From Escherichia coli (GTDB lineage Bacteria > Pseudomonadota > Gammaproteobacteria > Enterobacterales > Enterobacteriaceae), in the NCBI RefSeq assembly GCF_036507355.1, contig NZ_AP027877.1: 64,000 bases of DNA; one strand, 5' to 3'. Each line of letters starts with the position of its first letter. Position 1 is the first letter of the stretch. Of this stretch, positions 34,106 to 37,100 are shown in pieces. A program made the position numbers.

Positions 34106-37100
34106 TGATGGGCGGTATTCAGAAACGGCGATTGTCGTGAGAACAGAATGGTTGCACCAGAATACAGATATAAAAAAACCGACATGACAGTCGGTTTTTT
34201 TATTTTTTCCGCCCAAGACTTGGTGGTTCCGGGCAGAAATGAAACAGTCCTCATCTAGCAAGTGAATTATAAGTCAGGATGCCTACATATTCAAACAGCT
34301 ATGTTGGCGATACAATCCCGACGCTAGTAGTGATACTGCCTCAAGGGATTACCGCAGTGCGGAAAAGTACTTTTAAGTCCTGGTCAGGATACAGGTGGTG
34401 CTGATTCTGGTGCTCTAATTTGGAGAGAGGCAGTCCTCATCTAGCACATGAAGAAAATCATAGTTACAGGCAACGTAAGGGTAAGCTGTGATTGTCTTTC
34501 TCCCTTAAGGGAGCAACGGATGAAAACTTTTCTCGATAAAGTTCTCATCGTTCTTAAGGCGCTAATCGCGCTGCTGGAACTGATCCGTCAGTTTATTGAA
34601 CAACTGAGGAAACGTAGCTAAGGCCGAAGGTTTACCACCTTCGGCCTTTAAAAAAACCGACATGACAGTTGGTTTCATATTTATTGCCAAAATGCACACT
34701 GTTCATGCCAGATGCGGCGTAAACGCCTTATCCGGCCTACACAATCTTGCAAAATCAATATATTGCACGCTCTTCGTAGGCCTGATAAGCGTAGCGCATC
34801 AGGCAATCTAACACCTGTCATCACCCCGCAAACTGCCTGAACAGCGCCTTACCCTTAACCAGTCTCGCGCCCAGCCAGCCGCCGAAAAGCGACAGCAGCA
34901 GCGCACCGCTGCACGGCAGAACAATCCACAATCGCCAGTCTGGCTCCCACGGAAAATCAAACACTTTCGCCTGCAACACTGCCAGCGCAGTTTCCGCACC
35001 AATTGCGGCCACCAGGCCGGAAACAAACCCAAGCATGGCGAACTCACACCACAACGTGGTACGCAGCAGTTTTTTCCCCGCACCGAGTGTGCGCCACACC
35101 ACCAGCTCCTGATGACGCTGACGCATTCCCACCTGCACCTGTGCCAGCAACAGCAACATACCGCAGGCGGTGACCAGCACCACCATCACCTCCAGCGCCC
35201 GACTTACCTGCTCCAGCACCTGACCGACCTGTTTTAAAATCGCGCCAATGTCTAACAGGCTAATGGTAGGGAACTGGCGGTTGAGTTGCGTCAACATGCC
35301 GTTGCCATTCTCCCAGCGGAAACTGGTAAGCCAGCTCTGCGGTTGCCCGTCTAATGCCCCTTCAGGGAAAATAAAATAGAAATTAGGCCGCAGACTTTCC
35401 CAGTCCACTTTGCGCAGGCTGGTCACTTTAGCGCGGAACTCCTGGGTATCGCCCATAAAAGTCACGGTATCACCGAGGGCAACGTTTAAGCGTTTCGCCA
35501 GCCCCTCTTCCATCGACACTTCATCGGCTTTTGGCGGCCAGTTACCGGCGACAATCGGATTATGATCGGGCCGCGTATTTTGCCAGGTAAGATTGAGTTC
35601 GCGATTGAGCGCCTCATCTTCATTGCCTTCTGTCGGCTTGCCGTTAATCGCCGTCAGTCTCGCCCGCACCACCGGATAAAACGATTCCGGGACTATCTGA
35701 TGTTCCGCGAGGAACGCTTTTAGCGGTGCTACCTGTTCTGTGGCGATGTTGATTAAAAAGTAGTTCGGGCTTTCTGGAGGTAGCTGCTGCTGCCAGCGGT
35801 CGAGCAGATCGCCACGCAACACCAGCAGCAGTGCCAGCAGCATAAAGGAGAGCGAAAATGCCGAAAGCTGGCTTAACGTTGACCACGGCTGACGTAACAG
35901 GCGGCTAACCGCCAGGCGCAGAGGCAGCGATTTCAGCGTCATGCGGCGAAGTACATTCAGCAGCATCCAGCCCAGCACACCGCACAGCAAAGCCAGTACT
36001 ACCGCGCCCGCCAGCACCGCCCAAAGCAGCATGCTGCCACCCATTAATCCGGCGAGCAGCAGCACAACCACCACACTGACAATCGGCAGATAAAACTTCA
36101 GCGGCCAGACGTTCGCAACCACATCATTACGTAATACGCGTAAAGGCTGCGTTGCCAGCAACAAGCGGTATGGTCGTAGCCCCACCAGCAGCGAGATGAC
36201 CGTCATGGTGCCCAGCGCCCATAGCCATGGCCAGAGGCTGGCTGGCGGTAGTGCAGCAGGCAGAACGGGCTTGAGCAGCACCATCAACACGTTTTCGAAC
36301 AACAGGCCTATCGCCCCACCGGTAACGGCTGAAAGCGCCAGCACCATCAACCACTGACCGACGATTAGCTTACGCAGTTGCGCTCGCCCTGCCCCCAGCG
36401 TTTTGAGGATCGCCACCAGATCGTAGCGACTGCGACAGTAATGATTCATCGCCACCGCCACCGCTGCCACTGCCAGCAGCAAGGTCAGAAGCGCCGAAAG
36501 CAGCAGGAACTGCTGCGAGCGTTCCATCGATCGCCCCAGCGCGCCTTCGTCCTGTTCCAGACCGTACCAGCGTTGTTCGGGTTTAAGCTGAGGTAACAAC
36601 CATTTCTCATAGCCGTCGAGTTGGTTCTCGTTGCCGCCGAATTTATAGCGCCAGTTGACCCGACTCCCCGGCTGCACGGCTCCGGTTTTATCGACATCCG
36701 CCAGATTCATCATCAGACGCGGAGCCATCTGGAAGGGGTTAAAACCGGAATCCGGTTCCTGAATCACTTCTCCGGCAATCCGCAAAGTGGCATCGCCCAC
36801 GTCAATGGTGTCGCCCGTTTTCAGGTTAAGCAGTGCCATCAGGCGTGGGGCCAGCAATACGCTGCCCGCCTGCGGTTTCAGGCCAGGGGGATTGGTTTGC
36901 AGATCGCCATACATCGGGTAGATATCATCCACCGCTTTGACGTTCGCCAGCTGCGGTGTGTCGCCTGCAAATGTCATGGTGGCGAAAGTCAGCTGCTTGC
37001 CGACTTTCAGGCCGCGCTTTTGCGCTTCCTCCAGCCACGCTTGCGGCACTTCGCGCGAACTGCGCAGCGCCCGATCGCCCGCCATAAACTCACGGCTTTG

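What the first reader, a model, noticed from the sequence alone, without database searches (positions are those of the whole stretch)
34172..34675. A 26-bp direct repeat flanks a ~450-bp non-coding segment between selU and ybbP, where K-12 carries an rhs element
aaaaaaaccgacatgacagtcggttt (34172-34197) recurs as aaaaaaaccgacatgacagttggttt (34650-34675), with 25 of 26 positions identical. The intervening segment contains a second internal 16-17-bp direct repeat (cagtcctcatctagca at 34245-34260 and 34431-34446), a strong Shine-Dalgarno (aagggag) ahead of a 26-codon ORF (MKTFLDKVLIVLKAANRAAGTDPSVY, 34519-34599), and a GC-rich hairpin (ggccgaagg…ccttcggcc). The repeat-bounded structure looks like a small insertion, a recombination scar, or a small RNA / small-protein locus at the site where an rhs element sits in K-12 (from memory).
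Basis: partly seen in the sequence, partly recalled or inferred. Interest (0 to 1): 0.45.

Follow-up and report, generated by a model that had tools for sequence, protein, structure and literature searches.

The report
DinQ-like toxin and antisense RNA locus
The repeat-bounded segment between selU and ybbP is a second chromosomal copy of the known DinQ/AgrB small-toxin plus antisense-RNA module, already labelled "DinQ" in reference E. coli annotations, so it is real but largely ordinary.

Summary
The true product is 33 aa: MKTFLDKVLIVLKALIALLELIRQFIEQLRKRS (34520-34621).

The segment is a dinQ/agrB-family type I toxin-antitoxin module.
- The ORF passes NCBIfam toxin_DinQ (40.1 bits, cutoff 30).
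- RefSeq annotates it as dinQ at this site. The module is present in about 1,330 of 5,426 complete E. coli genomes.
- On the minus strand, 34258-34170 passes the Rfam AgrB model (53.6 bits, threshold 40).
- The whole locus aligns with the K-12 arsR-gor dinQ-agrA-agrB region and with dql loci on plasmids and in Photorhabdus and Hafnia.

The inner 16-nt repeat is the sRNA 5' end and its target in the toxin 5' UTR.

The outer 26-40-nt repeat is the Agr-type terminator hairpin plus a partial second copy after the toxin terminator. It is specific to this locus and is not a target-site duplication.

The site is polymorphic: this module, an rhs island (K-12, O157), or empty (EcN).

Unlike canonical dinQ, the locus has no LexA box. 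The window carries a rare stop-to-Gln allele; the common product is 27 aa.

Novelty and interest are low.

The parts
34170..34203 (.). Terminator hairpin, copy 1 of the outer repeat. It has 14-bp arms, an A-run on one side and a T-run on the other. It serves as the 3' end of the Agr-like sRNA on the minus strand and is a likely selU terminator on the plus strand.
   Evidence: Terminator-like on both strands. Inverted repeat I2 is 100% complementary. Fold energy is -16.9 kcal/mol, z = -5.8. The stem is identical to the K-12 AgrA/AgrB terminator stem.
34170..34259 (-). Agr-like antisense sRNA (antitoxin), about 90 nt: a 5' pairing region, a central stem-loop and a terminator.
   Evidence: Rfam RF02891 AgrB scores 53.6 bits against a gathering score of 40, covering the full model 1-84. 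Fold z-score is -4.9. It aligns to K-12 agrA/agrB.
34266..34294 (-). Promoter-like site for the sRNA: -35 TTGAAT, 17-nt spacer, -10 TATAAT. The predicted start is about 34259.
   Evidence: It matches 10 of 12 consensus positions and is the only promoter-like site found in 34000-34900. The hexamer positions are conserved in the Photorhabdus locus.
34311..34316 (+). Putative -10 (TACAAT) of the toxin mRNA, with an inferred transcription start at about G34323.
   Evidence: It aligns with TATAAT/TATACT of the Photorhabdus and Hafnia dql loci. The following GCTAG aligns with the family GTTAG, which is +1 in K-12. This is inferred, not mapped.
34323..34342 (+). 5' leader element, the counterpart of K-12 'sequence 1 / a'. 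It pairs with the sRNA target site in the full-length transcript and acts as a lock.
   Evidence: In the MFE of 34323-34545, 34323-27 and 34335-42 pair with 34428-46. GCUAG/CUAGC here corresponds to GUUAG/CUAAC in K-12. The model is from PMC5066626.
34422..34446 (+). Target site of the sRNA in the toxin 5' UTR. The core at 34431-34446 is perfectly complementary to the sRNA 5' end and is copy 2 of the inner repeat.
   Evidence: One search confirms the exact 16-mer. Duplex energy is -57.0 kcal/mol against -28.6 +/- 3.4 for shuffles. The cognate pair is the best in both its row and its column of the 13-locus matrix.
34500..34514 (+). Hairpin sequestering the Shine-Dalgarno sequence (CUCCC-UUAA-GGGAG). 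It is the counterpart of K-12 hairpin 3:4.
   Evidence: Inverted repeat I14. MFE pairs 34500-04 with 34509-13. The equivalent CUCCAU-CGC-AUGGAG is seen in K-12.
34520..34621 (+). DinQ-family toxin ORF, 33 aa in this window. In the common allele a TAA at 34601-34603 gives 27 aa.
   Evidence: NCBIfam NF041472 toxin_DinQ scores 40.1 bits against a cutoff of 30. PGAP annotates 'dinQ' at the same place. PF28061:DinQ is on record. Substitutions are biased to the third codon position versus Photorhabdus and Hafnia.
34620..34651 (+). Terminator hairpin of the toxin mRNA (12-bp GC-rich stem followed by UUU).
   Evidence: Inverted repeat I7 and fold. It is homologous to the terminators of K-12 dinQ and of the dql loci.
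34649..34688 (.). Copy 2 of the outer repeat: a partial duplicate of the last 40 nt of the Agr-like gene (terminator hairpin plus 14 nt). On the minus strand it is followed by U7, so it is a likely terminator for ybbP read-through.
   Evidence: D1 and the folds. The loop ATGACA is identical to copy 1. It is absent from all other family loci examined and present only in the same module in Escherichia sp. E1V33.

Best explanation
The segment is a complete type I toxin-antitoxin module of the DinQ/AgrB family. It is a 'dinQ-like' (dql) paralog in the selU-ybbP intergenic region.

The plus strand encodes an mRNA that probably starts near 34323. It has a 5' UTR of about 200 nt, a 27/33-aa hydrophobic helical peptide (34520-34621) and its own terminator. 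The minus strand encodes a divergent sRNA of about 90 nt (34259-34170) with its own promoter and terminator.

By analogy with K-12 dinQ/agrB and pOXA-48 dqlB/agrB, the mechanism has three steps (inferred):
1. The full-length mRNA is translationally inert. Its 5' end pairs with the target site and the Shine-Dalgarno sequence sits in a small hairpin.
2. A 5'-processed form becomes translatable.
3. The sRNA 5' end pairs with 34422-34446, which keeps the Shine-Dalgarno hairpin closed and exposes the duplex to RNase III.

The inner 16-nt direct repeat is this sRNA/target pair written on one strand.

The outer 26-40-nt repeat is the sRNA's terminator hairpin plus a partial second copy just after the toxin terminator. 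Together they probably insulate the module from the convergent selU and ybbP transcripts.

The homology, anatomy and base complementarity are shown here. Transcription, processing, toxicity and repression are inferred.
For: - AgrB covariance model hit above the gathering score on the minus strand (53.6 vs 40).
- toxin_DinQ HMM hit above its curated cutoff (40.1 vs 30).
- PGAP annotates dinQ at this position. The module is present in about 1,330 of 5,426 complete E. coli genomes.
- The locus aligns end to end with K-12 dinQ-agrA-agrB and with the Photorhabdus and Hafnia dql loci.
- The sRNA has a promoter-like site and a terminator.
- Cognate duplex energy is -57.0 kcal/mol against -28.6 +/- 3.4 for shuffles.
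- In 13 of 13 family loci the sRNA 5' end pairs best with its own mRNA target, although the target sequences differ between loci: mean -53.7 vs -30.9 kcal/mol.
- The predicted 5'-end/target lock and the Shine-Dalgarno hairpin match the published model (PMC5066626).
- Substitutions in the ORF are biased to the third codon position.
- The module is at least 99% identical in 1,133 genomes.
- The family mechanism was shown experimentally for K-12 dinQ/agrB (PMC5066626) and for pOXA-48 dqlB/agrB, including compensatory mutations (PMC12365149).
Against: - No expression data exist for this paralog.
- Its sRNA/target complementarity is the shortest of the 13 loci compared: 16 nt exact, -40.3 kcal/mol against a family mean of -53.7.
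- Simple folding does not predict an open Shine-Dalgarno sequence in the putative processed form. P(unpaired) is about 0.17 in all forms.
- About 180 genomes carry a 108-bp deletion that removes the target site, Shine-Dalgarno sequence and start codon. The toxin is therefore dispensable.
- The window's allele has lost the usual stop codon.
- The sRNA 5' ends in the covariation matrix were defined by their match to their own target. That test is therefore partly circular.
Confidence: 0.82

Rival explanations
1. The segment is a small mobile insertion or recombination scar bounded by the 26-bp direct repeat acting as a target-site duplication, and the ORF and hairpins are incidental.
For: The segment is present in some E. 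coli and absent in others. It is flanked by a 25/26 direct repeat. The site is a hotspot that also receives rhs islands.
Against: In empty-site genomes (EcN, E22, SCU-204, GN06489) neither repeat copy is present. The indel spans about 34123-34693, with both copies inside it. There is no transposase and no terminal inverted repeats. The repeated sequence is the conserved Agr-family terminator. The interior is a complete homolog of a known gene pair.
Confidence: 0.05
2. The locus is a decaying, non-functional remnant of a DinQ-family module. The toxin is no longer expressed or no longer toxic, and the sRNA is an orphan.
For: It has the shortest sRNA/target complementarity in the family. About 180 genomes carry a deletion of the toxin start. 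The window carries a stop-loss allele. No LexA box is present. Antitoxin-only relics are known for zor/orz in MG1655 (PMC11264685).
Against: The promoter-like site, terminators, Shine-Dalgarno hairpin, start codon and ORF are all intact. The module is at least 99% identical in 1,133 genomes. The peptide is conserved with synonymous-biased change relative to Photorhabdus and Hafnia. A 16-nt perfect pairing extended by G-U pairs is, from general knowledge of related type I systems, within the range that works there; this was not checked here.
Confidence: 0.15
3. The sRNA's main role is cross-regulation of the canonical arsR-gor dinQ mRNA, which is co-resident in nearly all genomes, rather than control of its neighbouring ORF.
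For: Canonical dinQ is present in 5,422 of 5,426 genomes. The window sRNA's second-best target in the matrix is K-12 dinQ: -35.5 vs -40.3 kcal/mol for its cognate, or -47.8 with 45 nt.
Against: The cognate pairing is stronger in every comparison. K-12 AgrA pairs with dinQ at -51.1 kcal/mol yet is reported not to repress it (PMC5066626). A -47.8 duplex is therefore unlikely to suffice.
Confidence: 0.05

Closest known systems
dinQ-agrA-agrB locus of E. coli K-12 (arsR-gor intergenic region; Weel-Sneve 2013, Kristiansen 2016)
   Same: It has a divergent sRNA and a toxin mRNA with a long 5' UTR. It shares the conserved UTR blocks (AAGTCCTGG...ACAGGTGGTGC), the Shine-Dalgarno hairpin, the LIALLELIR peptide core and the same terminator stem on the sRNA.
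   Different: It lies at a different chromosomal site. It has one Agr copy instead of two. It has no LexA box: best match 5/6 core and 11/20 overall, against 6/6 and 15/20 in K-12. It uses an ATG start rather than GUG and has a different N-terminus (MKTFLDKV vs MIDKAI). Its perfect pairing is 16 nt, against the 32-nt G88-A119 antisense region reported for K-12. It has an extra partial terminator copy downstream.
dql (dinQ-like) genes of Enterobacteriaceae chromosomes and plasmids (Kristiansen 2016); DqlB/AgrB of pOXA-48 (Nat Commun 2025)
   Same: The architecture and the presumed mechanism are the same. The closest relatives found are the chromosomal loci of Photorhabdus khanii (77.6% over 255 nt; peptide VKAFLDKVLIVLKALVALLELIRQFID) and Hafnia paralvei.
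   Different: It scores below the DqlB cutoff (23.9 vs 35) and lacks the DqlB insert (AVAALANALIA). Whether it is one of the published dqlA sequences could not be checked, because the supplement is not held. It is chromosomal, so a plasmid-addiction role does not apply.
zorO-orzO type I toxin-antitoxin system
   Same: Both have a divergent sRNA, a long 5' UTR and a helical toxin of about 29 aa. The scan with the UTR motif also recovered ZorO loci with the same UTR blocks and Shine-Dalgarno hairpin.
   Different: The peptide family differs (MDTLTQKL...). The OrzO-P Rfam model scores only 24 bits against a gathering score of 60.

Membership tests
DinQ-family type I toxin (NCBIfam NF041472 / Pfam PF28061) | Profile HMM score at or above the curated cutoff | tested here: met
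   It scores 40.1 bits against a cutoff of 30, covering profile positions 1-22 of 22. PF28061:DinQ is on record for this exact protein. The local Pfam copy returned nothing.
DinQ-family type I toxin (NCBIfam NF041472 / Pfam PF28061) | Very small hydrophobic single-helix peptide | tested here: met
   It is 27 aa (common allele) or 33 aa (window). GRAVY is 1.23 and 0.60 respectively. The LIALLELIR core is shared with K-12 DinQ.
DinQ-family type I toxin (NCBIfam NF041472 / Pfam PF28061) | Long 5' UTR with conserved elements: a 5' lock on the target site and a hairpin sequestering the Shine-Dalgarno sequence | tested here: met
   Alignments to K-12 and to the dql loci. The MFE shows the 5'-end/target pairing and the CUCCC/GGGAG hairpin. 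Opening of the Shine-Dalgarno sequence in the processed form was not reproduced in silico, so that step is inconclusive.
DinQ-family type I toxin (NCBIfam NF041472 / Pfam PF28061) | Membrane toxicity on overexpression | not testable with these tools
   This requires an induction experiment.
dinQ proper (SOS-regulated ortholog at arsR-gor) | LexA operator overlapping the promoter | tested here: not met
   The best site in 34100-34700 matches 5/6 core positions and 11/20 overall. The K-12 site matches 6/6 and 15/20.
dinQ proper (SOS-regulated ortholog at arsR-gor) | Location between arsR and gor | tested here: not met
   It lies between selU/mnmH and ybbP. The arsR-gor locus is separately present in 5,422 of 5,426 genomes.
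AgrB antisense RNA (Rfam RF02891) | Covariance-model score at or above the gathering score | tested here: met
   It scores 53.6 bits against 40 with the full-length model.
AgrB antisense RNA (Rfam RF02891) | Transcribed divergently upstream of the toxin gene without overlapping it, with its own promoter and terminator | tested here: met
   The geometry is shown. These are consensus matches only; transcription was not measured.
AgrB antisense RNA (Rfam RF02891) | 5' region complementary to the toxin 5' UTR upstream of the ribosome-binding site | tested here: met
   There are 16 perfect pairs, extendable to about 25 with G-U pairs and one mismatch. The cognate duplex is the best in both row and column.
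DqlB (NCBIfam NF041473) | Profile HMM score at or above the curated cutoff | tested here: not met
   It scores 23.9 bits against a cutoff of 35.
Transposable or insertion element with target-site duplication | Direct repeats at the exact boundaries of the inserted DNA, with one copy at the empty site | tested here: not met
   Empty-site alleles have no copy of the hairpin. Both copies lie inside the indel at 34123-34693.

The most novel reading that the evidence does not exclude
This is a LexA-independent DinQ paralog with a shortened antisense interaction. It coexists with the SOS-controlled dinQ and alternates with an rhs toxin island at one chromosomal hotspot. The window's rare stop-to-Gln allele appends a basic tail (QLRKRS). 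That tail matches in-frame 'RKRN/S' codons conserved after the stop codons of every family member examined. This could mean that the post-stop codons are a cryptic or ancestral C-terminal tail that modulates toxicity, rather than only an RNA element.
Probability: 0.1. Interest if true: 0.4.

Novelty: already known. Interest (0 to 1): 0.18.

Why it matters
The finding mainly serves as a correction and clean-up.

- The locus is not an unexplained repeat structure. It is a member of a described toxin-antitoxin family, and standard resources (PGAP, NCBIfam, Rfam) already recognise both components.
- The RefSeq name 'damage-inducible DinQ' is probably misleading for this paralog, because it has no LexA box.
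- The partner sRNA is not annotated in the RefSeq records examined.
- About a quarter of E. coli genomes carry two DinQ-family modules, with toxin-deleted and stop-loss alleles segregating in the population. This could serve as natural material for studying how chromosomal type I toxins are tuned or lost.

Tried and rejected
- The local Pfam scan of the peptide returned nothing, although PF28061:DinQ is on record for it.
- A literature search for the peptide core string found no paper.
- The supplement of Kristiansen 2016, which lists the dql sequences, is not held. Identity with a published dqlA could therefore not be confirmed.
- The longer in-frame ORF from ATG 34448 (57 aa here, 51 aa in the common allele) was rejected as the product. 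It has no Shine-Dalgarno sequence at a usable distance. The upstream in-frame region carries stop codons in several family members (Cedecea, Buttiauxella, Citrobacter), and its similarity is at the nucleotide level.
- The target-site-duplication idea was rejected using empty-site alleles.
- The idea that the outer hairpin repeat is a family trait was rejected. No other locus has it.
- Folding of a putative processed mRNA did not show an opened Shine-Dalgarno sequence. That step of the K-12 model is neither supported nor refuted here.
- The pairwise MAFFT alignment of the promoter region with K-12 was ambiguous. The three-way alignment with closer relatives was used instead.
- The subthreshold Rfam hits at the hairpins (STnc370, RNAI, MicC and others) are generic terminator matches.
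Full report
**Observation**

The sequence at 34100-34830 is the intergenic region between selU/mnmH (33014-34108, plus strand) and ybbP (34821-37235, minus strand).

- The 26-nt repeat (34172-34197 / 34650-34675, 25/26) is present and far beyond chance: no matches in any of 100 shuffles. It extends to 40 nt at 83%.
- The 16-nt repeat (34245-34260 / 34431-34446, exact) is also present with 0 expected by chance. It extends to 22 nt.
- The GC-rich hairpin (34620-34648) and the AAGGGAG Shine-Dalgarno sequence are also there.
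The ORF is 34520-34621 and encodes MKTFLDKVLIVLKALIALLELIRQFIEQLRKRS, 33 aa.

**What it is**

Two independent curated models identify the two halves of a type I toxin-antitoxin module.

- The peptide passes NCBIfam NF041472 'toxin_DinQ' (40.1 bits, cutoff 30) and fails 'DqlB' (23.9 vs 35).
- On the minus strand, 34258-34170 matches the full Rfam AgrB model at 53.6 bits (gathering score 40), both in a local scan and in a whole-window gathering scan.
- RefSeq/PGAP already annotates 'dinQ: damage-inducible type I toxin DinQ' at exactly this position. The module matches 1,332 of 5,426 complete E. coli genomes, 1,314 of them at 80% coverage or more.
- No ncRNA is annotated there.
- The whole segment aligns, element by element, with the K-12 arsR-gor dinQ-agrA-agrB region.
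- It aligns more closely with chromosomal dinQ-like loci of Photorhabdus khanii (77.6% over 255 nt) and Hafnia paralvei.
- Kristiansen et al. 2016 (PMC5066626) defined this wider family as dql ('dinQ-like') genes in Enterobacteriaceae chromosomes and plasmids. [quoted passage not shown] Carriers of this module therefore have two DinQ-family systems.

**Anatomy and how it most likely works**

The sRNA:
- It has a promoter-like site (TTGAAT-17-TATAAT, 34294-34266, minus strand). This is the only such site in the region.
- The site would start transcription at about 34259.
- The sRNA ends at the hairpin 34203-34170 plus a U-run.

The toxin mRNA:
- The family alignment places its -10 at TACAAT (34311-34316) and its start near G34323. 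GCTAG here corresponds to GTTAG at +1 in K-12.

The pairing:
- The sRNA 5' end is perfectly complementary to 34431-34446. With G-U pairs, the pairing extends to about 34422.
- Duplex energy is -57.0 kcal/mol, against -28.6 +/- 3.4 for shuffled sRNA.

The mRNA structure:
- Folding the full-length leader pairs the mRNA's own 5' end (34323-27, 34335-42) with the same target site (34428-46).
- It places the Shine-Dalgarno sequence in the hairpin CUCCC-UUAA-GGGAG (34500-34513).
- This is the 'sequence 1:2 lock plus 3:4 hairpin' arrangement shown experimentally for K-12 dinQ (PMC5066626).
- The terminal pair GCUAG/CUAGC replaces K-12's GUUAG/CUAAC, which is a compensatory change.
- When the sRNA site is blocked, the Shine-Dalgarno hairpin is again predicted.
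- The predicted opening of the Shine-Dalgarno sequence in a processed form was not reproduced by simple folding. That step stays inferred.

Experimental support from relatives:
- It exists for K-12 dinQ/agrB (RNase III cleavage and in vitro translation).
- It exists for pOXA-48 dqlB/agrB (toxicity, rescue and compensatory mutations; PMC12365149).

**Family-level support**

I fetched three plasmid loci. I also scanned representative genomes with a conserved UTR motif.
- Every DinQ-like locus with enough flank has the same 'inner direct repeat' 180-240 nt apart, and its sequence differs from locus to locus.
- In a 13 x 13 matrix, each sRNA 5' end pairs best with its own mRNA: mean -53.7 vs -30.9 +/- 6.6 kcal/mol, 13 of 13 rows.
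- This test is partly circular, because each sRNA end was located by its match to its own target. The cross-locus specificity is nonetheless clear.
- The window's pair is the weakest cognate (-40.3 kcal/mol, 16 nt exact).
- ORF differences from Photorhabdus and Hafnia are concentrated at third codon positions (4/0/7 and 4/4/12), as expected for a translated gene.

**The outer repeat**

- Copy 1 is the terminator of the Agr-like sRNA. Its stem is identical to that of K-12 AgrA/AgrB.
- Copy 1 scores as a terminator in both directions, so it probably also stops selU transcription.
- Copy 2 (34649-34688) duplicates the last 40 nt of the sRNA gene, including the same ATGACA loop. It starts directly after the toxin terminator.
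- Copy 2 is absent from every other family locus. It is present only in the same module in Escherichia sp. E1V33, which also lies between selU and ybbP.
- On the minus strand copy 2 is followed by U7. A role as a stop for ybbP read-through is plausible but inferred.
- The outer repeat is not a target-site duplication. Genomes with an empty site join ...ATTCTG directly to TGCACGC... and contain neither copy. The indel is about 34123-34693.
- A 478-bp tandem duplication followed by deletion, or a local template switch, could have produced copy 2. I could not distinguish between these.

**The site in the population**

From an evenly spaced sample of the ranking:
- roughly a quarter of genomes have the module;
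- roughly a tenth have an empty site (EcN, UPEC and other strains);
- the rest match only the selU end, as in K-12 and O157:H7, which carry an rhs island.

Other points:
- In O157 the island replaces window positions about 34158-34777, leaving module-type flanks on both sides. In K-12 the whole intergenic region is replaced.
- Among carriers, 1,135 genomes keep the 108-nt stretch 34432-34539.
- About 180 genomes have lost that stretch between the imperfect repeats AGTCCTCATC and AGTTCTCATC. The loss removes the target site, Shine-Dalgarno sequence and start codon, but keeps the sRNA.
- The common toxin allele is 27 aa, with TAA at 34601-34603, and was seen on at least 1,000 contigs. The window's CAA allele (33 aa) was seen on only 5-8 contigs.

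**Differences from canonical dinQ**

- No LexA box is present: best 5/6 core and 11/20 overall, against 6/6 and 15/20 in K-12. The 'damage-inducible' label is therefore probably inherited from the HMM name rather than earned.
- There is one Agr gene rather than two, an ATG start, a different N-terminus and a shorter perfect duplex.
- K-12 AgrB pairs poorly with this mRNA (-38.9 kcal/mol, no better than the best shuffle).
- The window sRNA pairs with dinQ at -47.8 kcal/mol. This is below the -51.1 of AgrA, which is reported not to repress dinQ. Cross-talk therefore seems unlikely.

**Novelty**

The family, its mechanism and its spread are published. The gene is named in RefSeq at this locus, and Rfam's model finds the sRNA. 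I found no paper that treats this particular selU-ybbP paralog, and I could not check the published dql list. I therefore rate it as already known, with minor new details:
- the missing LexA box;
- the allele spectrum;
- the locus-specific terminator duplication;
- the alternation with an rhs island at the same site.

Noticed in passing
window 34601-34621; L004, L010, L011, L012: All family members examined keep in-frame codons for a basic tail after the toxin stop codon(s): K-12 N**RKRN*, IncX1 G*WRRRN*, IncX5 D**IRKRN*, pRK1 D**AWKRN*, and the common allele here E*LRKRS*. They lie within a conserved GGAAACGTAACTAAGG block just before the terminator. The window's CAA allele translates this tail. 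Whether the block is an RNA element or a cryptic coding remnant is unknown.
   Followed up: partly
window 34432-34539 (L002): About 180 complete genomes carry a 108-bp deletion between the imperfect 10-nt repeats AGTCCTCATC and AGTTCTCATC. It removes the sRNA target, the Shine-Dalgarno sequence and the first codons but leaves the sRNA gene. This is an antitoxin-only allele.
   Followed up: partly
L014, L031, L032, L035, L053, L062 (genome-contig scan): The dinQ-type 5' UTR motif AAGTCCTGG...ACRGGTGGTGC also retrieved ZorO toxin loci (MDTLTQKLTVLIAVLELLVALLRLIDLLK). [quoted passage not shown] A 2024 paper noted UTR similarity on plasmids and said no relationship had been proposed (PMC11264685).
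   Followed up: partly
window 34694-34800: REP/BIME-like palindromic units lie between the module and ybbP. They give subthreshold hits to naRNA4 and ES036. They are shared with empty-site genomes and vary in copy number: SCU-204 has an extra unit.
   Followed up: partly
window 34123-34157 and 34778-34820; L003, L071: In O157:H7 the rhs island is flanked by the same sequences that flank the toxin module here. This suggests the island replaced a module-type allele in that lineage. K-12's island boundaries are different.
   Followed up: partly
window 21084-21150 (-) and 5005-5078 (-): The whole-window Rfam gathering scan also found the enterobacterial sRNA STnc480 (87.1 bits) and a tRNA.
   Followed up: no
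L015, L018, L022, L047, L058: DinQ/DqlB-type loci appear on short contigs assigned to Haemophilus sputorum, Lachnospiraceae MAGs, an uncultured bacterium and Chryseobacterium. The Chryseobacterium locus encodes the same peptide as the Citrobacter locus L049. These are most likely enterobacterial plasmid or chromosomal contamination in those assemblies.
   Followed up: no
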